Positions 32,661-64,000 of a stretch of DNA of 64,000 nucleotides are shown piece by piece. The notes below the pieces were generated by a model. That model saw only the letters and a list, made by a program, of their open reading frames with translations, made no database searches and was not told where the DNA came from. The DNA comes from Naegleria gruberi (Eukaryota). The stretch lies in the NCBI GenBank assembly GCA_000004985.1, contig GG738890.1; one strand, 5' to 3'. Made by a program: the position numbers and the translations under genes. Numbering within the stretch: position 1 is the first letter of the stretch; every line of letters begins with the position of its first letter.

Positions 32661-33106
32661 ATAGTAATGTTATCGTCATAAGGACGAAACCATTCATGAT
32701 TTTCCTTACTATCTCACTTGAGAAATTCTCCACTGCTTATTTTATGAATCGGACAAATTTCAAAAATTGCAAGAAAAAACCAATATTATGTTCGATAATA
32801 ATTTATTTAACTAGCACGATCAGCAGCAGGAAATATTATGAAAAGAAAGACAACACTTTATCCTCTAGAGTCTCCTTCTTCACAGTACTCATAGAGAACG
32901 GAATATCTAGGCCAAGCCTTTTAAACAACTCGAAAACATCTCGAAAATTCCAAGCTTTTGAACCCTCATCAAAAGTATCGCATCGACACCCACACAGTCA
33001 AAGGAATCCTTCCTCAAGAGGACTCTGTGGAAGAATCACCAAAACCTTTTAAAAAAGTTCGAACATCATCTCATCATCAAGGGTGATAAGAGAAAATCAA
33101 AAAAAA

Positions 33107-34207
33107 ATGGAAGAAATATTGAAACAAATTAATGAAGATTGGTCGGAATGTTCAACTGACCAAGAAAAGATTGAAAGTAGTTTTGATAAATTGATAAAGG
33201 AGAAGAGAGCAGATCTTTTCTATTCGGAAAGTGATGTAAAGAAGAAGGCTGAAAAACAAAAAAAAAGACTTCGATCATGTGTAGCCATGATTGAATCTGT
33301 AGAAAAGGCTGGATCATCAAATGAAGAATTAATCAAGGATTTACAAGAAAAGAAACTAAAGATTAAACATTATATCAAGAAACTTGACGTGATCAACAAG
33401 CAAACTTTGAATACAGGAGGTAAATTTGTGGAACTATTTCTTGGTAAAGAGAGTAGTGCAGTTCTTGTCGGAGATGATTCTAAAAAGTTTAATTTCAAGA
33501 AGGAATATGAAAGTTTCAAGTACAAGTGCACTGTTTGGAACATTCCATTCACATTATTGTTATACTTTTTCATTCAATCTCGTGCAATTGATACCCTCTA
33601 TCAATTGTATTTGACCTATTTTTATTTAACACTTGCTCTTAGAGAAAATATTTTGGCAGTGAATGGAAGTAATATCAAGGCCTGGTGGATTAGACATCAC
33701 TACCTCTCTATCTTTTTAGTTATTACAATGTTAACATGGCCAGAAACAGCATTCTATCAAGCATATCGTCCTTACTTTTTACTTTACGCTCTATATGCCT
33801 CAATTGTCCAAGTTCTGCAATACAAATATCAAAAGGAAAGATTGTATGTTAGAACAGCTATTGGAAAGTCCAACATGATGGATGTTGCCAACTCTGATAG
33901 TTCTCAAGTTGTCGTCGAATCATCTCTTGCTCTTGTTTTCCTCTTACCATTCATCTTTATTGGACAAATCTTCCAAGTTTATAATGCTTACAAATTATTT
34001 GATTGGGGATTATTACATCCAGAATCATTTGGTGGTATTACTGTTGAATGGCAAGTTTATGCTAATGGTTTACTTTTCCTTATTTTGGCACTTGGTAATT
34101 TTGTCACCACTACTGAAGTTTTGGTAAAGAAGGTTAAGAGAGTCAAAAAGAGAAAGCAAGAAAAAGCTGCTCTAGCCAAGGCCTCAGAAGAAAAGAAGAT
34201 TGAATAA
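33107..34207 (+). CDS. TMEM120 (TACAN) family membrane protein
   Basis: The track ORF starts at a GTG; the first ATG is at 33107 (MEEILKQ...). An N-terminal coiled coil precedes a 6-TM domain. Signature matches to TMEM120A are WWIRHHYLSIFLVITMLTWP, QVLQYKYQKERLYVRTAIG and LLPFIFIGQIFQVYNAYKLF. Confidence 0.8.
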   Translation: MEEILKQINEDWSECSTDQEKIESSFDKLIKEKRADLFYSESDVKKKAEKQKKRLRSCVAMIESVEKAGSSNEELIKDLQEKKLKIKHYIKKLDVINKQTLNTGGKFVELFLGKESSAVLVGDDSKKFNFKKEYESFKYKCTVWNIPFTLLLYFFIQSRAIDTLYQLYLTYFYLTLALRENILAVNGSNIKAWWIRHHYLSIFLVITMLTWPETAFYQAYRPYFLLYALYASIVQVLQYKYQKERLYVRTAIGKSNMMDVANSDSSQVVVESSLALVFLLPFIFIGQIFQVYNAYKLFDWGLLHPESFGGITVEWQVYANGLLFLILALGNFVTTTEVLVKKVKRVKKRKQEKAALAKASEEKKIE

Positions 34208-34287
34208 ATTGTAACTTTTCATGGACTCACAAATTTATTTCTCTAAGCATAACAAAATTGATGCAAAATTATTGGAGAATTGGCAAT

Positions 34288-34689
34288 CTATTTACGCTTA
34301 TAGATGTCAACCTTCTTATTTCTCTTTCCACCTCTTCTTCTAATCTTTCTATTCTTCTTTCTGTAAGTATCAATTCTTCTCTTCTTATTCAATCTTCTCT
34401 TCTTTCCATATACATCAATCTTCTTTCTGATAATTCTCTTCTTACCATATCTCTTCCATCCTCTTCTCTTTCTTCCATAGGTGTCAATGTACTTGTGGAG
34501 CTTTCTATTGTTCTTTCTCTTCTTGAGTCTGAATCTCTTGAGATTTCTCTTCTTGTTATTGCTCTTTCTAATGTACAAGGAGAGAGTTGAAGCTTGTTCT
34601 TCATTGGTAGCACTAACTCCAGTAGTGAACGAAAGAGCAAGAACTGCCAAAGTCAAGGCAATCAATAGAATTGAAACGATTCTTTTCAT
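34288..34689 (-). CDS. secreted polycationic tandem-repeat protein (signal peptide + K/R-rich repeats)
   Basis: The ATG was verified (RC of cat 34687..34689). The product is MKRIVSILLIALTLAVLALSFTTGVSA|TNEEQASTLSLYIRKSNNKKRNLKRFRLKKRKNNRKLHKYIDTYGRKRRGWKRYGKKRIIRKKIDVYGKKRRLNKKRRIDTYRKKNRKIRRRGGKRNKKVDIYKRK. It has a classic signal peptide. The mature part is about 45% Lys/Arg with a repeated (I/V)D(T/V/I)Y(G)(K/R)KRR unit. Confidence 0.5.
   Translation of the reverse strand: MKRIVSILLIALTLAVLALSFTTGVSATNEEQASTLSLYIRKSNNKKRNLKRFRLKKRKNNRKLHKYIDTYGRKRRGWKRYGKKRIIRKKIDVYGKKRRLNKKRRIDTYRKKNRKIRRRGGKRNKKVDIYKRK
34320..34600. repeat. imperfect tandem repeat / low-complexity tract (TCTTCT-rich on +, AAGAAG-rich on -) encoding the basic repeats
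   Basis: A periodic tcttctcttc...ccata motif recurs every roughly 40 nt. Three overlapping ORFs (34258..34590 +, 34288..34689 -, 34389..34640 -) arise from it. Only the signal-peptide-bearing minus-strand frame looks protein-like. Confidence 0.5.
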
Positions 34690-35052
34690 TTTTGTTTGTT
34701 GAATTCAAATCAATGGAATAAATGTTCCTCAATTTAAAGATTTTAGAACCTGGTATATTGATCGATATATTGATCATTTTGGTAAGAAAGTTGATGATTC
34801 CTTTGCCAAAAAAAGAGTTGTTTTGGATTTTAGACATTGTTCATTTGGTCTTTCTTAAAACTCACAATTGTTAAAGAACAGAATCAAAGAACTTCAAGGT
34901 TTGGATTGACCATAAAGAAAAAAGTTTCCAATATCTATTTAACGATGATTGTATTATAATTATCAAGAAACTTACTGTAGTGTTTCCTTGATGGTTGTAA
35001 CTTTTCTTCCAAAACAGTAGCCTTATAATTCACCTTAACCTTAGTATTGTTA

Positions 35053-36686
35053 TTAGTAATCTTTTATAATAATATCTGCCAATGATTTTCTTCCTTCTTC
35101 CACATATTCATATAAATGTTTCCTCAAGTTATTCTGTAAAACAGATTCAGTATGGCAAGACTGAATATAGCACAAAAGAGCTGCACCTTTGACACTAACT
35201 TCTGAACCAACCAATACTACTCTCTCACTTGAATTCAAGAGACTTCCACCATTCTCGATTAGAAGGGATTGTGCTGTTTTGGATTCAGCAACTTCTTCAT
35301 CACTAAAAGCGTAATCGTATTGAGATTCAAATATTTGAATTAATAAATCATTCCCCTGTCCAACACAACATAAGAAGGATGAATTATTTGCTCCAATATT
35401 CAACACCCTACCAAATGTTCGTTCTTGTAAATCAAGAGTGTCTATTTTGAGAGGTCCATTACCAGTTGTGTAAACCTTACCACTCTTTGTAAGTACAATT
35501 ACACCGTAGTAACGACATGAAATATCAATGGCAGGATCTGACACCAAGTACTTGTTAAGCTCTGTAGATGGTTGGAAAGCATCTATAGAATCACAAATCT
35601 TTCCAATAGCCAACTCTCCATAGTAATTATAACCAGTACAATGAATTAGACCACTCCTATCGAGTGCAACAATAGTGTGGTCTCCACAAGCAACCTTACA
35701 AATAAACAAATCAGGATTACTTTCAAAATATGGACATAATGAAATGCTTGAAACATCTTGATATCGTGGAAATCCACATTCACCAAAACCATTCGAACCT
35801 GTGTTATTGTAATATCCATAATTTGAATTTCAGAAATATTCCAATAAAACTATTTCAGAAAATATTTAAACAAACCTAGTACAAATATTCTTCCATAATT
35901 GGTTAGAAAAACAGATGAAGAAGAAGCACATGTCATGTATGTTATAAACTCATTTTCTTTAAATGAACTATTAAATGGCAACAGATACGCATGTAGCACC
36001 TCTTCAGTTTTGTTGATTTTCAATTGAATTGCATCATTTCCCAATAGAACACTACTCCAAAATTCAATCCGAATGCAATAAGTGATGATCGCTTTGGCAC
36101 TTGAATTGTCTGACCATTTGGCAACTTATTAATATACATTTCATTCTATAATTCCAGTAATATTATAATATTAAAACATCATCATTAAATTATCTAAAAA
36201 ACCTACGCATTCCTTGACTTGGTATTTTAATTCCGAAATATCTTGATCATCATCATTACGATCAATAATTTCATCCACCAATATCATACAATGAGTATAC
36301 GACGCAGCCACATAATAAACCCTCTTCACTCCAATACTCTGATCCAATCCAGAACTTGTTAATAAATCAAATCCTTCATTCTGATCACTCGACAACTTGC
36401 TAATATGCAAACGATAATCATTGGTGATGGCAAATATACAATCCCTTCGCAATAGGCACTGTACAAGTGAATTGTACCCTCTTTGATTGCAATATTGTTG
36501 TATGTGAGTGAGAAAATTGTTAATTTTTGATGGTTGTGCACTGCAGGCAATGAACGGAGGTGATTTCAGTGCTTGCATTTTTTTTTGTAATGTTTTAATA
36601 GATTTTTGTAATAGTAATCCAACTTGGAAAGTTTGTAAAGGAGGTTCAGTTAGAATCTCAACATTGAATTGAAATTCCAAAAACAA
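35053..36686 (-). CDS. RCC1-repeat (regulator of chromosome condensation-like beta-propeller) protein, multi-exon, 5' end uncertain
   Basis: Collinear ORFs 35053..35709, 35850..36044 and 36171..36686 are present. The C-terminal exon carries RCC1-type blades (CGDHTIVALDRSGLIHCTGYNYYGELAIG, RYYGVIVLTKSGKVYTTGNG, SFLCCVGQGNDLL). The track ORF 36171..36686 starts at a TTG. The first in-frame ATG lies 36 codons in, so the true start may be an upstream exon. Confidence 0.55.
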
Positions 36687-38031: not shown

Positions 38032-41000
38032 TTATTCAAACAATAGAGCAAGGTGAGAGTATTGACATGGGTGAATTTGGTGTGGATGTTGATGCTTGGT
38101 CAATTCTAGAATAAATTTAGCTTCAATGTCATTTGGTAGAGCTTTGCTTAGTTCTTCAATCAGCTCTGTCTTGGCTTTCTTAAGAGACTCTTCTTTATAC
38201 TTTGGTTCTGAAATATGAAGAGCATCTTTCAACTTGGAAAGTTGTTTGATCATCATCTTTACAAGACTATAACCCTTGATGAATGGATTGTGGTCACGAT
38301 CTTGTTGTGCAGCATCTGAACTGCCCATTTGAGGATCATCCATAAAGTATGATTCTTCGTTCAATGATTCACATCTTTCATTACCAACTTCATTGAACAA
38401 CATGGACAATAAATTGCCATTGTTTGGATTGAAAGGATCCATGAGTGGAGAGAATGAAATTGAATCATCAAATTGTTGCATTGCATCGTGTTCATGATCA
38501 TTAACCATAACTTGTTGTTGTGGTGGCTGTGGCTGGGTTGGCATTTGTTGTTGTACATTTTGGAAAGCATCTGGTAAATTGGCACCAAATAATCTTGATG
38601 AATTTGTTTCGTTCATACTTTGCAAAAGTGTTGCATTCTCAATTTGATTTATCAAATCTCCATAAAGCTTTTGAACAACACCATAACGTGTTGACAAAAC
38701 TTTAAGAGCTCTCAAGTCATCCTTAAAGTCCACAGATGTGTCACCTGTTTGTCTCCAATATTCTAAACGAACAGCAACGGCTTTGGCAATACCATTTGCA
38801 ATGACAAATGGAGCAAAAATGTACTTTTCTGTTTTGGTATATGAAATTATTTCATTTGCATAAGAAACCAAAACTGCTGCAGGAATATTCTCCACCTTAC
38901 TGTATAAATCTAAATAAAATTCTCTAATAAAAACATTTGAGAATAAACAGAACAAATCACCTTGTGCTTGATACATGGTTTCGAATAATAAACTATAATA
39001 TGTGTGTGCAATTCTAACCACATTTTCAATAAGAGGCAAATATTGACTACTGATTTGACCCTTTTCAGCCTTATCAAAGAAACTGGTATCGAGCTTGATT
39101 CTGGAGGCAAAAATACCGAATAATTTAGTAGCACTACTTGGTTTACCAGTAACTTTTGACATGTAATCAGATAAAAATGTTTCCTTATACCTAACTAAAA
39201 TACGTAACAAAAATTTAGGAAGTGAAGGACTGTCTTGTGCTGAATAGCTTGCTTGAGTTGCTCCAACTTGTTGATCTGTTGGTCCTCCATAGCCATGAAG
39301 TCCAATCATTTGTTTAACCATGGCCAAGTAGAGAGAAGTCTTTCTCATGTCTCCTTCACCACAAACATAGTCAGTCAAATAGTGCAAAGCTACAGCAATA
39401 TAAATATTATCCATATTATCAAAATATTTAGAAATCTTTTCCTTAGCAAGATTGTGCATGTACTCCATAAGTTTTTGTCTATAGTCACCCTTAAGAACAT
39501 AGTCACCACTTTGTTGAAGTGCTAATGCTTGAATCGAATATAAAATTGAAATCAAACCATCTTGTGTTGTTGAATCCAATTGCATATGGTTAAGTATCAT
39601 TGATGCATTAGAATTACCATCATTTCCCATTAATTGTTCTATTAATCCTTCCATCAAGCTCTTGTCAACCAAGGCGAAACCTGCGCACAATTCTTTATAA
39701 TACAAATCTAGGAGTTTGTGCGCAGTATATCTGAAATTGATTGAGTGTACAAAAGATGACAACATAACTGAAATTGAGTTTGGATCTTTAAAATCTCTTT
39801 CAGAATATGCCATTGGATTAAATTGATGTGTTAAAAGTGGGGAAGAGCCATGAAGGGATGATGGCAGAGGTGACATTTCATTGTGATTCGAAGATCCAGA
39901 AGATGAGGATTGTACAACACTATGAGGAGTATGAGTAACTGGATTCGAAAAGTTTGACGACGTGTTCATAGAAATTGAAGGAACTGCTGGAGAAGCTGTT
40001 GGTATTGTAGTTGGAGGAATAGCAACATTTACATTAGTAGTAGAGGGTGGTGGACAAATTGTTTGTGGTACCTCAGTGGTAATTGGATTTGTTGGTGGTA
40101 CACTTTCCTTATCCTTTTTCTTCTTCTTTTTCTTTCTATTTTGTTGGTCTTGTCCTTTTCTACTTTTCAAATAAACACAATCCTTTCCCATCTTTTTACA
40201 ATAATTACAAACTGGTAATTCTCTACTACATTTCTTGTGTCTTGATCTACAATTGGTACAAGCAATTTGAGCAAGTTGGAAATTACCTCCTTGCTCATCA
40301 ATAGCAGTCTCTGTGAAAGTAGTATTCGTTGGTGAATAAGGAGCAGTAGTTGAAGCAGCATCATATGATTCAGCTATCTTTTTCTTGGACTTTTGCTTCT
40401 TCTTGCTTGGAGGTGGTTGAATACTTTCATCACTTGAGGATTCACTAGATGTTGAGGAACCACTCGATTTGTTTCCATTACCTCCATCAGTATTACTAAC
40501 ATCTTGTTGTTGTTGAGTTGCTGCTAACATTGCCTGAGTAGCATCGGTAGAATGTTGTGGTTGATAGGAATGACTCATATATTGATGAGAAAGATCTGCC
40601 CGAGGAGGTGGAGGTTGAAAGTATCCTTGATGATGAGGAGGTTGATAAAAACCTCCATTTGTAGTCTGGTTTGGATGATGATAATAGAGAGGATAGTGAG
40701 GTGGCAAAACTGGTTGTTGTTGTTGTTGTGGATGCATCATTGAATGTTGTTGCTGATGATGCTGGTGATTTGGAGGTGGTGGATAGGAATGAGCAGTTTG
40801 TTGAGTGTACATGGATGGTGGCAATGTAGATTTACTTCCATCATGAAGTTTAGCCCAGTCTGCCATGCTATGTAATCCTCCTGCTCCTCCCAGTGTTGTA
40901 CTATTATTGGTAGGAATGTTTGGAAAATGATGTTGTGGATAATGATTATTACTTGTTGGGGGTAGTGAATGAGAAGTTTCATTCATTTTCGGATCTAAAT

Positions 41001-41358
41001 TACTACTACTAGTATTGCTATTATTTGAAAAAAGGTGATTGGAAGGGGAGGTAAAGGATGAAATACTATTACAATCCAATAAATTTAGGGAGGATGTTGT
41101 GGACAAGGGAGATTGAACAATAGATGACGACAAGGGTGTGGTTGTAGACGGAAGTAATGTACAAGAACTCTCACAATCTAACTGTGTTGGAGTTAGCACT
41201 GTTGGTTGCTGTTGATAATATTGTTGTACATGTTGATGATGATGCGGAGAAGTTATTGTTGTTGGAAAATTATCATGATAATTGTTAGTGGTCAACATTG
41301 TGAATTCAATTTCGCTACCAACCTTTGAATCAACTACAGAGGAGGAGTTTTTGCTCAT
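38032..41358 (-). CDS. Zn(II)2Cys6 (Gal4-type) binuclear-cluster transcription factor, Q-rich, 1108 aa
   Basis: The ATG was verified. A canonical CX2CX6CX6CX2CX6C cluster CTNCRSRHKKCSRELPVCNYCKKMGKDCVY is preceded by long poly-Q/H/P tracts and a lysine-rich NLS-like stretch. A large C-terminal helical region is arranged like a fungal-type transcription factor middle homology domain. Confidence 0.75.
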   Translation of the reverse strand: MSKNSSSVVDSKVGSEIEFTMLTTNNYHDNFPTTITSPHHHQHVQQYYQQQPTVLTPTQLDCESSCTLLPSTTTPLSSSIVQSPLSTTSSLNLLDCNSISSFTSPSNHLFSNNSNTSSSNLDPKMNETSHSLPPTSNNHYPQHHFPNIPTNNSTTLGGAGGLHSMADWAKLHDGSKSTLPPSMYTQQTAHSYPPPPNHQHHQQQHSMMHPQQQQQPVLPPHYPLYYHHPNQTTNGGFYQPPHHQGYFQPPPPRADLSHQYMSHSYQPQHSTDATQAMLAATQQQQDVSNTDGGNGNKSSGSSTSSESSSDESIQPPPSKKKQKSKKKIAESYDAASTTAPYSPTNTTFTETAIDEQGGNFQLAQIACTNCRSRHKKCSRELPVCNYCKKMGKDCVYLKSRKGQDQQNRKKKKKKKDKESVPPTNPITTEVPQTICPPPSTTNVNVAIPPTTIPTASPAVPSISMNTSSNFSNPVTHTPHSVVQSSSSGSSNHNEMSPLPSSLHGSSPLLTHQFNPMAYSERDFKDPNSISVMLSSFVHSINFRYTAHKLLDLYYKELCAGFALVDKSLMEGLIEQLMGNDGNSNASMILNHMQLDSTTQDGLISILYSIQALALQQSGDYVLKGDYRQKLMEYMHNLAKEKISKYFDNMDNIYIAVALHYLTDYVCGEGDMRKTSLYLAMVKQMIGLHGYGGPTDQQVGATQASYSAQDSPSLPKFLLRILVRYKETFLSDYMSKVTGKPSSATKLFGIFASRIKLDTSFFDKAEKGQISSQYLPLIENVVRIAHTYYSLLFETMYQAQGDLFCLFSNVFIREFYLDLYSKVENIPAAVLVSYANEIISYTKTEKYIFAPFVIANGIAKAVAVRLEYWRQTGDTSVDFKDDLRALKVLSTRYGVVQKLYGDLINQIENATLLQSMNETNSSRLFGANLPDAFQNVQQQMPTQPQPPQQQVMVNDHEHDAMQQFDDSISFSPLMDPFNPNNGNLLSMLFNEVGNERCESLNEESYFMDDPQMGSSDAAQQDRDHNPFIKGYSLVKMMIKQLSKLKDALHISEPKYKEESLKKAKTELIEELSKALPNDIEAKFILELTKHQHPHQIHPCQYSHLALLFE

Positions 41359-55047: not shown

Positions 55048-55923
55048 TTATTTGGTCTTGATCTTCTTGGCACCAACCTTTGGGAAACTGGATTCATCAG
55101 CTGACTTTCCTTCTTCCTTTTGATTCCAAGTTGCAGAACTGCTTGAAGATGTTGTTGTACTAACGAAAACCTTGGCAGTTGAGGCTGACTTTTCAGTACC
55201 CTTCTTTGGTTTAGTTTCAACAACTTCAACAGGTACTTCCTTAGTGTTTGAATTCCAGAAATCATCTTCATTAGCATATGGATCTCTGACAACAGTACGT
55301 CTCTTTTCCTTATTAACTGTTGGTTGAGCAGTTGCTACTTCTTGTTCGGAATCAGATCCTTCACTGTTACTGTCGGCTTGTTTAGCTTCAACCTTCTTCT
55401 TGGTTTCTTGTTCTTCATCGGATTCATCCTTCTTGGTATCAACAAACTTTTTAAAGATGGACTTGTTTTCATCCTTCTTTTGTTTCTTTTGTTCAACCTT
55501 TGGTTCAGCCTTCTTTTCATCCTTCTTACGACCAGTTGATTCAGGTCTCTTGACAACTTGGAAGGTTGGATCTTCTTCCTTTTGCTTCTTGGATGACTTT
55601 TGTTCAGTAGTGGCCTTCTTGGAAGTAGTAGCCTTCTTCTTTGATTCAGTTTGTTCAACAACAACTTCCTTCTTCTTGTTCAATCCATAGAGTTCAGCAA
55701 CATCAATGGAATCAAGTTCAGAAGCATCTTCATTTTCTGAGGCAGAGGAAGCAGCAGTAACAGTAGCCTTCTTTTCTGACTTATTCTTCTTCTTCTTACC
55801 AGCAGTGGTTGGCTTCAACAATTCACTCTTGTTGACACTAGCAGTTCCGGAACCACTTTTAGTATTAAAGAAGAGGAAAGCAGCAGCAACCAAAACCAAA
55901 GGAATGATCAAATAGAGCAGCAT
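55048..55923 (-). CDS. N-terminal signal-anchor + K/E-rich low-complexity protein
   Basis: The true ATG is at about 55923; the track ORF starts at an upstream TTG. The product starts MLLYLIIPLVLVAAAFLFF and continues about 270 aa that is roughly 35% K/E with S/T runs. The antisense strand is covered by spurious ORFs (55324..55915) that arise from the low-complexity coding. Confidence 0.4.
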   Translation of the reverse strand: MLLYLIIPLVLVAAAFLFFNTKSGSGTASVNKSELLKPTTAGKKKKNKSEKKATVTAASSASENEDASELDSIDVAELYGLNKKKEVVVEQTESKKKATTSKKATTEQKSSKKQKEEDPTFQVVKRPESTGRKKDEKKAEPKVEQKKQKKDENKSIFKKFVDTKKDESDEEQETKKKVEAKQADSNSEGSDSEQEVATAQPTVNKEKRRTVVRDPYANEDDFWNSNTKEVPVEVVETKPKKGTEKSASTAKVFVSTTTSSSSSATWNQKEEGKSADESSFPKVGAKKIKTK

Positions 55924-62202: not shown

Positions 62203-64000
62203 CTTGGTGGGTTGTCGTCTTGGCAAGTTTGTAACTCAGTGGGAGAGTTACAACTTCAACCCATTCATAGTGGATTGGATTCGGAATGGAGTTCCAATCT
62301 ACTCAAATCCCACCCTTTGGAAAGAATTCAAGCAAAGGAAGAATTTCTCTCCAAAGGAGACCTCTTGGATGGATCAAGAAATCCAAGAGATGTTGAGTTC
62401 CAATGTCATCGAACTTGGAAACAAATCTACGGTACTCAATCCAATAAACATTGTCCCCAAGAAGGGCTCAGATCAGTTTCGTTTTATTCTGGATCTCAGG
62501 AAAGTAAACTTGGGGATCAAGGATACTTCGTTCAAGATGGACAACATTCAAAAATGTTTGAAGTTTGTTCAGAAAGGAATGTGGGCAACAAAGATAGACC
62601 TGAAGAAAGGCTATTTTCATGTTCCCATCAGAGAGAGTCATCGACACCTTCTGGGATTCAAGTACAAGAGCCTTGTATACCAATTCAAATGCCTTCCATT
62701 TGGTCTAAGTCAAGCTCCCAGAAACTTCACCAAGATAATGAAGGAACTAATGACCAAGTGGAGAAAGCAGGGCATCTTGGTATTCATTTACATCGACGAT
62801 ATATTGATTCTAAGCAACCACAAGGAAACTACCCAACAACACACAGACATAATCTTGAAAGACCTAGAAACATTAGGATGGATTATACAGAAGGAGAAAA
62901 GTGTGTTGACACCTTGTCAATGCATAGAATTTCTGGGTCTGGAATTGGATTTAATATCAGGTTTGGTAAAAATTCCACTCAACAAACAAGCCACTGCGAT
63001 AAAACTGATCCAAGACTTCTTGTCAGCGAACCAACTGAACAGATATGTAGCTTGCAAGAAAGTGGCTCAGTTTCTTGGGAAGATGGAATTTCTAACCCTA
63101 TCAAACCATTATTTTGCACCATTTCTGGCTCGTCTTCGAAAGGATATGGTGAAAGTAGTAAACGACAAATCCTGGCACGCATCGATGAGAATATTCAGAG
63201 GTGCAACCAAAGACCTCAAGATATTGAAAACTCTGATTCAGGAAAACAGTGGAGTTCCATTCGAACTGAACTCAATGAACCCGATTCGAGTGAATTCAGA
63301 TGCTTGCCCAACAGGTTATGGAATTCACGCAGAATCAACCATTACAATTGGAAGATTCAATTCCTCAGAGCACATCAATGTCAAAGAGTTAAAAACACTC
63401 CTCATTTTCTTCACACAAGCAGATCAATTAAACCTTTATGGTCCTGGTCAGGCATTCGAGATAAGAGGCGACAATGTAACAGCAATATCTTATATAAGGA
63501 GAGGTTACGGAGTCATCGAAGAACTCTCACAAATAGCCAGAGATCTCTACAAAATTCTAATGAGAAGAAAATGGTGGATTTCCAAAGTGATTTATATTCC
63601 CTCAAAGGAAAACATTTTGGCGGACAGACTGAGTCGTCTAACAGAATGGAAATCCTCTCAAGAACTATTGAATCTAGTTCAGACAGAATTTGGAGAACAC
63701 CACGTGGACAGATTCGCAACATTGGAATCAACCACAACAATTCAATTCAATTCATGGATAGAGAACGACACATTTCTGAACCCATGGGAACAAAATCTGA
63801 TGAGCTATTGTGCTCCTCCTCTGGGTCTGATATCTCAAGCTCTAGTTCACTGCATCAAGTCAGGAGCCAAAGCGACATTTGTGGTTCCAGATTGGCCCTC
63901 TTCGATATGGTTTCCAGTCTTGCTAAAGATATCAGAAAGAATGATAACTGTTTCGAGAAAGATGCTTATAATAACGCCCTTATCAGAGTTGCAAGACAAG
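62069..64000 (+). CDS. retroelement pol ORF (RT / RNase H / MT-like domain), +1 frame relative to gag, 3' partial
   Basis: The frame opens after the TGA at 62066..62068. It overlaps the gag frame by about 134 nt and runs without a stop to the end of the window. It is not listed in the ORF track because it has no stop inside the window. The first in-frame ATG is near 62360 (SWMDQEIQEM). The RT box C YIDD is at about 62789..62800. Confidence 0.8.

What the first reader, a model, noticed from the sequence alone, without database searches (positions are those of the whole stretch)
34288..34689. Secreted, extremely basic tandem-repeat protein (candidate antimicrobial/polyanion-binding factor)
The ORF has a textbook signal peptide MKRIVSILLIALTLAVLALSFTTGVSA. 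The ~105-aa mature region is about 45% Lys/Arg and built from about six copies of an (I/V)D(T/V/I)Y(G)(K/R)KRR(x)N(K)KR unit. Signal peptide plus polycationic repeats is the architecture of secreted antimicrobial or nucleic-acid/polyanion-binding peptides. I do not recognise this repeat from any described family. A bacterivorous amoeba would plausibly deploy such peptides. The underlying DNA is a degenerate ~40-nt tandem repeat, which suggests rapid expansion and contraction.
Basis: partly seen in the sequence, partly recalled or inferred. Interest (0 to 1): 0.6.

Follow-up and report, generated by a model that had tools for sequence, protein, structure and literature searches.

The report
Secreted polybasic orphan protein of Naegleria
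This is a real but uncharacterised gene of the soil amoeboflagellate Naegleria gruberi that encodes a small, probably secreted protein that is nearly half lysine and arginine; it belongs to a gene family found only in Naegleria, and its function (polyanion or bacteria binder, or precursor of tiny peptides) is still open.

Summary
The ORF at 34288-34689 (-) is real. It is 100% identical to the annotated Naegleria gruberi "predicted protein" NAEGRDRAFT_71365.

- **Anatomy.** The N-terminus fits a cleavable signal peptide by rule-based inspection. The 106-aa mature part is 47% K+R, net +44, pI 11.9, with no Cys.
- **Repeat.** It is weaker than described: four, not six, [IV]D[TVI]Y motifs at irregular spacing. 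TRF finds no ~40-nt tandem DNA repeat.
- **Family.** N. gruberi has five paralogues, and three environmental relatives turned up. A profile search of 1.84 billion proteins found nothing else. No Pfam or PDB relative exists.
- **Conserved traits.** All members with a credible N-terminus keep the signal peptide. All members keep the charge (+32 to +44). Every Asp of the basic region lies in a ΦDΦY motif.
- **Translation.** Lys codon bias (26 AAG : 2 AAA) and a frame-specific dN/dS of about 0.4 support translation of the minus strand.

Function is inferred only. My leading reading (about 0.4) is a secretory-pathway polycation that binds polyanions such as bacterial surfaces. The main rival (about 0.25) is a Kex2-type multi-copy precursor of ΦDΦY(G) peptides. 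It lacks the amphipathic periodicity of classical antimicrobial peptides. Interest is moderate to low: an orphan family that nobody has tested.

The parts
34288..34689 (-). Complete single-exon CDS, 133 codons plus TAG stop. It equals N. gruberi NAEGRDRAFT_71365 / XP_002673524.1.
   Evidence: ORF list. 100% identity to P0001. The only frame without stops and with the lowest dN/dS against environmental relatives.
34609..34689 (-). Predicted signal peptide, aa 1-27: MKR, an 18-residue hydrophobic core, then TTGVSA, with predicted cleavage after Ala27.
   Evidence: Hydropathy 2.8 over aa 4-21. SILLIALTL is invariant, and Val at -3 with a small residue at -1 is kept in all members that have this N-terminus. 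Rule-based only; SignalP was not available.
34573..34608 (-). Short acidic/neutral N-terminal piece of the mature protein, TNEEQASTLSLY (aa 28-39). The EE..STLS[LT][YF] motif is conserved.
   Evidence: Alignments A1 to A3. S34, T35, L36 and S37 are invariant in A3.
34291..34572 (-). Polybasic region, aa 40-133. K and R make up 47% of the mature protein, encoded almost entirely by AAG and AGA.
   Evidence: Composition. Codon counts AAG 26, AAA 2, AGA 23, CGT 1, and a longest A-run of 4.
34477..34488 (-). Motif 1, IDTY (aa 68-71), in the context HKY-IDTY-GRKRR.
   Evidence: Coordinates checked.
34408..34419 (-). Motif 2, IDVY (aa 91-94), in the context RKK-IDVY-GKKRR.
34363..34374 (-). Motif 3, IDTY (aa 106-109), in the context KRR-IDTY-RKKN. 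D, T and Y are invariant in all seven aligned members.
34300..34311 (-). Motif 4, VDIY (aa 127-130), followed by the conserved C-terminus KRK and the stop.
   Evidence: The C-terminus [VF]D[ILF]YK[RK]K-stop is kept in six of the seven aligned members.
34234..34239 (-). AATAAA hexamer 49-54 nt downstream of the stop, a possible poly(A) signal (inferred).
   Evidence: Sequence. In the relatives L002 and L003 an AATAAA lies 16-20 nt before the shared contig end.

Best explanation
The ORF is a genuine, translated, taxonomically restricted gene. It is one of five N. gruberi paralogues. It encodes a small intrinsically disordered protein that is inserted into the ER by a cleavable N-terminal signal peptide and delivered to the cell exterior or to the endo-/phagolysosomal lumen.

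The mature product of about 13 kDa is a polycation (net +44). I infer that it works mainly by charge: it binds and condenses or permeabilises polyanionic targets such as bacterial envelopes, nucleic acids, polyphosphate or acidic glycans. This would be protamine- or polylysine-like action rather than an amphipathic pore-former. It would most plausibly serve the handling of bacterial prey or competitors.

The four ΦDΦY islands would be short hydrophobic/aromatic contact points set in the basic matrix.

**Shown:** gene reality, family, signal-peptide-like N-terminus, conserved charge and motif.
**Inferred:** secretion, target and biological role.
For: **Gene reality**
- Identical to an annotated N. 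gruberi protein, with four further paralogues on other scaffolds.
- An intact, near-identical allele lies on an independent metagenome contig with the same neighbours.
- More distant relatives have an intact ORF of the same length and the same C-terminus.
- Lys codons are 26 AAG: 2 AAA, against 50% AAG in 27 long ORFs of the window (p = 1.4e-6). The longest A-run is 4.
- The annotated frame has the lowest dN/dS (0.41-0.48) and is the only frame of six without stops.

**Secretory entry**
- Positively charged n-region, 18-residue hydrophobic core, conserved Val(-3) and small residue at -1, then an acidic flank. All are kept in every member with a credible N-terminus.

**Charge is the selected trait**
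- K+R is 42-47% and net charge +32 to +44 in all six full members, although spacer length, spacer sequence and the K:R ratio change. Motif number varies from 2 to 5.
- Spacers of up to about 40 aa stay K/N/G/R-rich with no acidic residue. A mere cleavage-site spacer would not need that.

**Fast-evolving effector pattern**
- Between N. gruberi and the L002/L003 lineage, the signal peptide has diverged less than the rest of the protein (dN 0.26 against 0.44).
- Two close environmental alleles differ by 14 nonsynonymous and 1 synonymous change.
- From general knowledge, this pattern resembles amphibian antimicrobial peptide and conotoxin genes.
Against: - There are no expression, localisation or activity data. 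No paper mentions the locus tags.
- No significant helical or beta hydrophobic moment against shuffles, and the AF2 model is uninformative (pLDDT 64, pTM 0.25). The classical antimicrobial peptide mechanism is therefore unsupported.
- The invariant Asp and Tyr in each motif, flanked by dibasic sites, suggest specific recognition or processing. A pure charge model does not explain that.
- The 18-residue hydrophobic core is long for a signal peptide, so an uncleaved signal anchor is not excluded.
- The 14:1 ratio rests on few changes, and several are clustered.
- dS against N. gruberi is near saturation, and the codon alignment was built on the annotated frame.
Confidence: 0.4

Rival explanations
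1. **Multi-copy pro-peptide, like a Kex2-processed repeat protein.** After signal-peptide removal, a dibasic-specific endoprotease and a carboxypeptidase chew the basic spacers away. This releases four tiny peptides, (KY)IDTY(G), IDVY(G), IDTY and VDIY, which act as secreted signals, for example density, encystment or mating cues. The polybasic matrix is only a dense array of cleavage sites.
For: - In silico cleavage at runs of two or more basic residues leaves the ΦDΦY(G) units and the N-terminal propiece as the only fragments of 4 aa or more.
- Every motif is flanked on both sides by K/R pairs, except the N-terminal side of motif 1 (HKY-IDTY). In the paralogue P0007, units are separated only by KKK or KRKR.
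- Every Asp of the basic region lies in a motif, in all members.
- It formally passes the three published KEP criteria of signal peptide, at least 3 repeats, and KR/RR/KK sites between the repeats (PMC6339444).
- Copy number varies from 2 to 5, as in peptide precursors.
Against: - The spacers are almost purely basic and long, giving net +44. Known multi-copy precursors need only dibasic pairs and, from general knowledge, usually have neutral or acidic spacers.
- The environmental relatives have only two motifs yet keep full charge.
- Two of the four N-terminal flanks are KK, which from general knowledge is a poor Kex2 site.
- Gly follows Tyr in only two of four units. Excavates are reported to lack the amidating enzyme PAM (PMC6529398), so the Gly is unlikely to be an amidation signal.
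- Spacer blocks such as GKKRIIRKK are as well conserved among paralogues as the motifs.
- No processing or modifying enzyme is encoded within about 10 kb.
- The presence of a kexin-type convertase in Naegleria was not established.
Confidence: 0.25
2. **Structural or adhesive polycation.** The protein is secreted into the cyst wall, the pore plugs or the substrate-adhesion layer. There it binds acidic polysaccharides electrostatically and is hardened through its regularly spaced tyrosines (dityrosine or DOPA-type cross-links). Analogues are the basic K/G/Y-rich cement proteins of sandcastle worms and the Tyr-rich oocyst-wall peptides of Eimeria.
For: - Seven Tyr and six Gly sit in a Cys-free, K/R-rich, signal-peptide-bearing protein.
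- The Tyr of each motif is invariant.
- The analogy to basic K/G/Y cement proteins and to Tyr cross-linked walls rests on general knowledge.
Against: - There is no evidence of cyst-specific expression.
- Tyr content (about 7%) is modest.
- No peroxidase or tyrosinase gene is nearby.
- The invariant Asp is unexplained.
- Rapid sequence turnover is less typical of structural wall proteins.
Confidence: 0.1
3. **Not secreted.** In this reading the hydrophobic N-terminus is an uncleaved signal anchor. The protein would then be a type II membrane protein with a luminal polybasic tail. Alternatively the protein acts inside the cell as a nucleic-acid or ribosome binder.
For: - The hydrophobic core is 18 residues long with very high hydropathy, which is borderline for a transmembrane helix.
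- Another Lys-rich ORF in the window (55048-55923) also starts with a hydrophobic anchor.
- Polybasic stretches resemble nuclear or nucleolar localisation signals (general knowledge).
Against: - A canonical c-region with Val(-3) and a small residue at -1 is conserved while neighbouring residues change.
- The acidic flank after the core, together with the basic n-region, favours translocation of the C-terminal part (charge-difference rule, general knowledge).
- No member lacks the hydrophobic N-terminus, apart from one dubious gene model, P0004.
Confidence: 0.1
4. **Young orphan ORF with little or no function.** A purine-rich, low-complexity sequence happens to stay open and was duplicated. The gene models are ab initio predictions.
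For: - Low-complexity AAG/AGA DNA keeps several frames open. Overlapping ORFs of 83 aa, 110 aa and 73 aa exist.
- The family is confined to the N. gruberi lineage.
- dN/dS is fairly high (0.4), and close alleles differ almost only by nonsynonymous changes.
- Two of the five gene models are clearly imperfect.
Against: - The signal peptide, its cleavage site, the ΦDΦY motifs and the C-terminus are conserved at a synonymous divergence (dS) of about 1.
- All indels between the window ORF and the L002/L003 lineage, and between L002 and L003, keep the frame and an intact ORF. The upstream flank between L002 and L003, in contrast, carries 11-nt and 6-nt indels.
- There is a strong AAG-over-AAA bias and avoidance of A-runs.
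- The motif enrichment is not reached in 200,000 shuffles.
- Two independent assemblies of a relative give contigs that look like complete mRNAs ending 16-20 nt after an AATAAA.
Confidence: 0.1

Closest known systems
KEX2-processed repeat proteins (KEPs) of fungi, including the yeast alpha-factor precursor and the ustiloxin/phomopsin-type RiPP precursors (PMC6339444, PMC7329392)
   Same: Signal peptide, a short pro-piece, then several copies of a short conserved core that contains Tyr, as the ustiloxin YAIG core does. Each core is flanked by KR/RR/KK sites, and copy number varies between paralogues.
   Different: - No sequence homology, and a non-fungal host.
- The spacers are long and almost entirely basic rather than minimal.
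- Some family members have only two cores.
- No clustered modifying enzymes (DUF3328, tyrosinase, protease) nearby.
- No convertase has been shown for Naegleria.
Polycationic antimicrobial proteins that act by charge: protamines, poly-lysine, and the dibasic-repeat molluscidins of molluscs (molluscidin is named as a conserved mollusc AMP in bioRxiv 10.64898/2026.08.23.746575; its properties are from my own knowledge)
   Same: Very high K/R content arranged as dibasic pairs, no Cys, no stable fold, and no amphipathic periodicity. Binding to polyanions is expected.
   Different: - No homology.
- This protein carries a classical signal peptide and conserved ΦDΦY islands.
- It is larger (106 aa) and more highly charged than most host-defence peptides.
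- Its activity is untested.
Classical cationic amphipathic host-defence peptides with a conserved prepro-region, such as amphibian dermaseptins and Hydra arminin (general knowledge)
   Same: Conserved signal peptide, a short anionic piece, then a fast-evolving cationic C-terminal part, in a small lineage-specific multigene family.
   Different: - No amphipathic helix or beta pattern above shuffled controls.
- Hydrophobic content is far below the usual 30-50%.
- Net charge is several-fold higher.
Amidated neuropeptide-type precursors, such as FMRFamide- or NPY-type 'x-Y-G-K-R' sites and the Chlamydomonas amidated peptides (PMC6919629, PMC6313938)
   Same: IDTYG-RKRR, IDVYG-KKRR and RYG-KKR match the peptide-Gly-dibasic signature.
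   Different: - Only some units carry the Gly.
- Excavates are reported to lack PAM (PMC6529398).
- The peptides would be only 4 residues long.

Membership tests
KEX2-processed repeat proteins (criteria of Le Marquer et al. 2019, PMC6339444) | N-terminal signal peptide and no other transmembrane segment | tested here: met
   Rule-based check: n-region, 18-residue hydrophobic core and a V-x-A cleavage site, conserved across the family. No other hydrophobic stretch. SignalP and TMHMM were not available.
KEX2-processed repeat proteins (criteria of Le Marquer et al. 2019, PMC6339444) | At least three near-identical repeated fragments after in-silico cleavage | tested here: inconclusive
   There are 4 ΦDΦY units in the window protein and 4-5 in the paralogues, but only 2 in the environmental relatives P0006 and P0008. 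The repeat is only 4-5 residues long.
KEX2-processed repeat proteins (criteria of Le Marquer et al. 2019, PMC6339444) | KR, RR or KK cleavage sites between the repeats | tested here: met
   There are 31 dibasic positions in the mature part, and K/R pairs lie between all four motifs.
KEX2-processed repeat proteins (criteria of Le Marquer et al. 2019, PMC6339444) | A Kex2/kexin-type convertase in the organism, and released peptides detectable | not testable with these tools
   The N. gruberi proteome could not be searched. The literature searches gave nothing specific for Naegleria.
Fungal dikaritin-type RiPP precursors (ustiloxin, phomopsin) | Precursor gene clustered with DUF3328 (UstYa) oxidases, a tyrosinase or a protease | tested here: not met
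   Genes within about 10 kb are MFS, TMEM120, RCC1-like, AAR2, Zn2Cys6 and BTB.
Classical amphipathic cationic antimicrobial peptides | Net positive charge and a secretory precursor | tested here: met
   Net +44 and a signal-peptide-like N-terminus.
Classical amphipathic cationic antimicrobial peptides | Amphipathic helix or beta-structure with a substantial hydrophobic face | tested here: not met
   The mean and maximum hydrophobic moment at 100, 160 and 180 degrees are not above 2000 shuffles (P = 0.24-0.86).
Classical amphipathic cationic antimicrobial peptides | Demonstrated microbicidal activity | not testable with these tools
   This needs an experiment.
Amidated peptide precursors (PAM-dependent) | Peptide-Gly followed by a dibasic site at each unit | tested here: inconclusive
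   Present at IDTYG-RK, RYG-KK and IDVYG-KK. Absent at IDTY-RKK and VDIY-KRK.
Amidated peptide precursors (PAM-dependent) | PHM/PAL (PAM) enzyme encoded by the organism | not tested
   Not searched in the genome. A review states that excavates completely lack PAM but does not name Naegleria (PMC6529398).
Any curated protein family (Pfam-A) or solved structure | Significant sequence match | tested here: not met
   There are 0 Pfam hits at E <= 1. The best PDB hit has E = 0.028 and is compositional. The only homologues among 1.84 billion representatives are Naegleria or Naegleria-like.

The most novel reading that the evidence does not exclude
The family is a heterolobosean counterpart of fungal Kex2-processed repeat proteins. 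It would be a polyprotein cut at its polybasic spacers to release ΦDΦY(G) tetra- or pentapeptides, possibly with modified Tyr, that serve as secreted cell-cell signals (density, encystment or mating cues). That would be the first peptidergic signalling precursor described in Discoba, and it would have arisen independently of the animal, plant, algal and fungal systems.
Probability: 0.2. Interest if true: 0.7.

Novelty: new variant of a known kind. Interest (0 to 1): 0.35.

Why it matters
**If the protein is secreted as an intact polycation.** It would be a candidate charge-based antibacterial or prey-handling factor in a free-living phagotroph. To my knowledge, the known antimicrobial effectors in this lineage are pore-forming saposin-like proteins and hydrolases. 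It would add a data point on how early, and how often, cationic host-defence-type molecules arose.

**If it is a multi-copy peptide precursor.** It would point to peptide signalling in Heterolobosea, which to my knowledge is undescribed.

**Either way.** It is a clean example of a fast-evolving, taxonomically restricted secreted gene family. A conserved signal peptide, a conserved charge and a minimal four-residue motif make easy experimental handles.

**As things stand.** It is an uncharacterised orphan with no functional data, so its present value is as a hypothesis generator.

Tried and rejected
- **Tandem DNA repeat.** TRF on 34100-34900 finds no ~40-nt array. The tandem-DNA-repeat description was dropped in favour of a short protein motif.
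- **Paralogue DNA.** The look-up of encoding contigs for P0001 to P0004 and P0007 returned nothing. Paralogue dN/dS and synteny could therefore not be done.
- **Near-identical allele.** L001 is 98.9% identical to the window, with only three differences in the ORF. That is too close for a selection test.
- **Second copy in the window.** tblastn of the family against the window finds none.
- **More relatives.** A second, profile-based homology search and a JGI metagenome scan found no further relatives. The first attempt at that scan failed for lack of a conserved block.
- **Structure.** The AlphaFold2 model is one long helix with pLDDT 64 and pTM 0.25. I judged it an artefact of charged low-complexity sequence and ran no fold search.
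- **PDB.** The phmmer search gave only compositional hits.
- **Amphipathicity.** The analysis was negative, so an amphipathic-helix antimicrobial mechanism was rejected.
- **Amidation.** This idea was down-weighted after a review stated that excavates lack PAM.
- **Literature.** Searches for the locus tags, for Naegleria secretome or cationic peptides, and for Naegleria kexin found nothing relevant.
- **Plus-strand ORF.** The Ser/Leu-rich ORF at 34258-34590 is the antisense shadow of AAG/AGA codons. That strand has higher dN/dS, and stops in the relatives.
- **RiPP gene cluster.** Rejected, because no modifying enzymes lie nearby.
Full report
**1. The observation**

The minus-strand ORF at 34288-34689 exists as described: 133 codons, ATG start, TAG stop. 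Its N-terminus is MKRIVSILLIALTLAVLALSFTTGVSA. It has a basic n-region and an 18-residue hydrophobic core with a Kyte-Doolittle mean of 2.8 over aa 4-21. The c-region has Val at -3 and Ala at -1, and it is followed by the acidic NEEQ. SignalP was not available, so the signal peptide is a rule-based call.

The remaining 106 residues hold 27 Lys and 23 Arg (47%), 6 acidic residues and no Cys. Net charge is +44, pI 11.85 and mass about 13.4 kDa.

The repeat description needs correcting.
- There are exactly four [ILVF]D[TVIL]Y motifs: IDTY at 68, IDVY at 91, IDTY at 106 and VDIY at 127.
- They are spaced 23, 15 and 21 residues apart, and residues 40-66 carry none.
- The motif is still highly non-random. 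None of 200,000 composition-preserving shuffles reached four copies, and the maximum was two.
- At the DNA level, TRF reports no array with a period near 40 nt, only a 15-nt x3.3 array of score 42.
- The repeat finder reports only short pairs offset by 30, 39 or 45 nt at 71-94% identity.
- The DNA periodicity is therefore just the shadow of a short protein motif.

**2. Whose gene it is**

The protein is 100% identical to an annotated "predicted protein" of Naegleria gruberi: NAEGRDRAFT_71365, XP_002673524.1, UniProt D2VQW0. The host is indeed a bacterivorous amoeba, but by established taxonomy it is a heterolobosean (Discoba), not an amoebozoan. The window's 33% GC fits that host.

The immediate neighbours are unrelated genes.
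- A TMEM120-family gene (33083-34207, plus strand, Pfam 7.7e-105) converges on the ORF's 3' end with only 80 nt between the stop codons.
- An RCC1-repeat gene lies upstream on the same strand.
- Within about 10 kb there are also an MFS transporter, AAR2, a Zn2Cys6 protein and a BTB protein.
- None of these is a protease, oxidase or peptide-modifying enzyme.

**3. The family**

Word-indexed searches and one exhaustive HMM search of 1.84 billion representative proteins found relatives only in Naegleria.

N. gruberi has five paralogues on different scaffolds.
- The window gene.
- NAEGRDRAFT_71069 (133 aa, 71% identity).
- NAEGRDRAFT_68008 (114 aa, 70% identity).
- NAEGRDRAFT_68479 (110 aa). Its model has an unrelated N-terminus and is probably mis-predicted.
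- NAEGRDRAFT_50395. This is a 565-aa model whose first 132 residues belong to the family. The rest carries a NOT2/3/5 C-terminal domain (Pfam 4e-35 at residues 436-557). It is almost certainly two genes merged by the predictor, because it breaks off exactly where the family's conserved C-terminus should follow.

Three environmental sequences also belong.
- P0005 lies on a 2.3-kb ENA metagenome contig that is 98.9% identical to window 33578-35868 and carries the same neighbours.
- P0006 and P0008 lie on 616-bp and 636-bp ENA contigs (L002, L003). Read with the standard genetic code, they encode 139 and 140 aa ending in VDFYKKK-stop and VDLYKKK-stop. The database entries had read through the stop.

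A JGI metagenome scan found nothing more. Pfam has no match. The PDB has nothing credible, with a best E of 0.028 that is compositional. No paper in the library mentions any of the locus tags.

**4. What is conserved**

Across members that are only about 45-55% identical overall, the following are kept.
- The signal peptide, with SILLIALTL invariant.
- Val at -3 and a small residue (A, G or C) at -1 of the predicted cleavage site.
- An acidic EE followed by STLS[LT][YF] immediately after the site.
- An HKYI motif.
- An RR-IDTY-[GR]-KK unit in which D, T and Y are invariant.
- The C-terminus KK-[VF]D[ILF]Y-K[RK]K-stop, in six of the seven aligned members.

Between these anchors, spacer length and sequence change freely, through in-frame indels of 4 to 19 residues. 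The K:R ratio also shifts, from 27:23 in the window protein to 37:11 in P0006. Yet K+R stays at 42-47% and net charge at +32 to +44.

Every Asp in the basic region of every member lies inside a ΦDΦY motif, counting VDFY in P0006. Motif number varies from 2 (environmental relatives) through 4 to 5 (NAEGRDRAFT_50395).

**5. Is it translated?**

Several independent signs say yes.
- **Codon bias.** Lys is encoded 26 times by AAG and twice by AAA. In 27 long ORFs of the same window the split is 50:50 (binomial p = 1.4e-6). Arg is AGA 23 of 24 times. The longest A-run in a 43%-A coding strand is four.
- **A parallel case.** The only other window ORF with a comparable bias (89% AAG) is another Lys-rich protein, at 55048-55923. 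From general knowledge, this fits selection against poly(A) tracts in poly-Lys-coding mRNAs, which stall ribosomes.
- **Frame test.** Against the L002/L003 lineage, the annotated frame has the lowest dN/dS of all six frames (0.41-0.48, against 0.58-1.63). It is also the only frame without stops. Two caveats apply: the alignment was built on that frame, and dS of about 1 is near saturation.
- **Indels.** Between L002 and L003, the upstream flank carries 11-nt and 6-nt indels, while the only coding indel is 3 nt.
- **mRNA-like contigs.** L002 and L003 come from two different assemblies. They begin at the same position (L003 still carries an Illumina adapter remnant) and end at the same nucleotide, 16-20 nt after an AATAAA on the sense strand. 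That looks like complete mRNAs of about 0.6 kb. An assembly-graph break at paralogue boundaries cannot be excluded, and I could not check the sample type. The window has an AATAAA at 34234-34239 (minus strand), 49-54 nt after the stop.

Evolution is fast. dN/dS is about 0.4 against the distant relative. The two close environmental alleles differ by 14 nonsynonymous changes and 1 synonymous change. That count is small, and several changes are clustered.

**6. What the protein is not**

- AlphaFold2 with the four-sequence alignment gives one long helix at pLDDT 64 and pTM 0.25. I regard this as the usual artefact for charged low-complexity sequence, and the protein is best treated as intrinsically disordered.
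- Hydrophobic-moment profiles at 100, 160 and 180 degrees are indistinguishable from shuffles (P = 0.24-0.86). It lacks the amphipathic design of classical membrane-lytic cationic peptides.
- The plus-strand Ser/Leu-rich ORF (34258-34590) is simply the antisense of the AAG/AGA codons.

**7. How it most likely works**

Two readings fit the anatomy.

*(a) Polycation.* After signal-peptide removal, the protein is delivered outside the cell or into the phagolysosomal lumen. There it acts through charge on polyanions: bacterial envelopes, nucleic acids, polyphosphate or acidic glycans. The ΦDΦY islands would be short hydrophobic/aromatic contacts.
- In favour: charge density is the one property held constant while spacers turn over. 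Spacers of up to about 40 residues stay basic without a single acidic residue. Members with only two motifs keep full charge.
- Also in favour: the signal peptide has diverged less than the mature part, a pattern that from general knowledge is typical of defence or offence effectors.

*(b) Precursor.* The protein is cut at its 31 dibasic positions.
- In silico, the only non-basic fragments of 4 residues or more are the N-terminal propiece and (LHKY)IDTYG, IDVYG, IDTY and VDIY.
- In NAEGRDRAFT_50395, units are separated only by KKK or KRKR.
- This formally satisfies the published criteria for fungal KEX2-processed repeat proteins: a signal peptide, at least three repeats, and KR/RR/KK sites between them (PMC6339444).
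- It would also explain the invariant Asp and Tyr.
- Against it: the uniformly basic, long spacers; conserved spacer blocks such as GKKRIIRKK; KK rather than KR/RR on the N-terminal side of two motifs; only two motifs in the environmental relatives; and no evidence yet for a kexin-type convertase in Naegleria.
- The tempting reading of Tyr-Gly-dibasic as an amidation signal is weakened. Gly is present in only some units, and a review states that excavates completely lack PAM (PMC6529398). That review does not name Naegleria.

*Weights.* I put about 0.4 on (a) and about 0.25 on (b). The remainder is split between a structural or adhesive, Tyr-cross-linked wall protein; a non-cleaved signal anchor or intracellular role; and a nearly functionless young orphan.

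The two main models are not mutually exclusive. Partial processing of a polycation into smaller cationic fragments is common among host-defence precursors (general knowledge).

**8. Comparison with known systems and novelty**

There is no homology to any described family. By architecture, the nearest relatives are these.
- Fungal KEPs and alpha-factor- or ustiloxin-type precursors. These share the layout but differ in spacer chemistry, in lineage and in clustering with modifying enzymes.
- Charge-only polycationic antimicrobials such as protamine, polylysine and the dibasic-repeat molluscidins. These share the composition, but here there is a signal peptide plus a conserved motif.
- Prepro-conserved cationic host-defence peptide families. 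These share the gene-family behaviour, but the amphipathicity test is failed here.

I classify it as a new variant of a known kind: a lineage-restricted secreted polybasic family with a minimal ΦDΦY motif. It is already present in the databases as an unnamed predicted protein. It has never been characterised in the literature I could search.

**9. Verdict**

A protistologist would find a signal-peptide-bearing protein with net +44 unusual but not astonishing. Nothing here yet opens a long-standing question. Interest is 0.35. It would rise to about 0.7 if the peptide-precursor reading were confirmed by peptidomics.

Noticed in passing
window 55048-55923 (-): A 291-aa ORF with an N-terminal hydrophobic anchor (MLLYLIIPLVLVAAAFLFF) and a very Lys-rich, Ser/Glu-rich body holding 56 Lys. 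It has no Pfam match. Its Lys codons are 89% AAG, the only other ORF in the window with a bias like the finding's ORF. This suggests a general avoidance of AAA runs in poly-Lys-coding genes of this genome.
   Followed up: partly
window 62369-64000 (+), running off the window end: An ORF with a reverse-transcriptase domain (RVT_1, 5e-26) and a weak, sub-threshold Dam-like N6-adenine methyltransferase match (8e-5). It is possibly a DIRS-like retroelement. GC rises to 0.40 in the last 2 kb, against about 0.33 elsewhere.
   Followed up: partly
P0007 = NAEGRDRAFT_50395 (another N. gruberi scaffold): This 565-aa gene model joins a member of the polybasic family (signal peptide plus five ΦDΦY motifs, residues 1-132) to a NOT2/3/5 C-terminal domain (residues 436-557). 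It is very likely two adjacent genes merged by the predictor. The model of P0004 (NAEGRDRAFT_68479) likewise has an implausible N-terminus.
   Followed up: partly
L002 1-616 and L003 1-636 (ENA assemblies ERZ4903137 and ERZ27254754): Two independent environmental contigs of a related species start and end at the same nucleotides. L003 keeps an Illumina adapter remnant at its 5' end. Both stop 16-20 nt after an AATAAA. They may be assembled mRNAs. The database gene caller read through the TAG stop and added 24 spurious residues.
   Followed up: partly
window 34208-34287: The TMEM120-family gene (plus strand, stop at 34207) and the polybasic gene (minus strand, stop at 34288) converge with only 80 nt between their stop codons. 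Their 3' UTRs probably overlap. The minus-strand AATAAA at 34234-34239 lies inside this gap.
   Followed up: no
window 38032-41358 (-): A 1108-aa ORF with a 'fungal' Zn(2)-Cys(6) binuclear cluster domain (4.8e-08) in a heterolobosean genome. The 40-42 kb interval also has the strongest GC skew of the window (+0.26).
   Followed up: no
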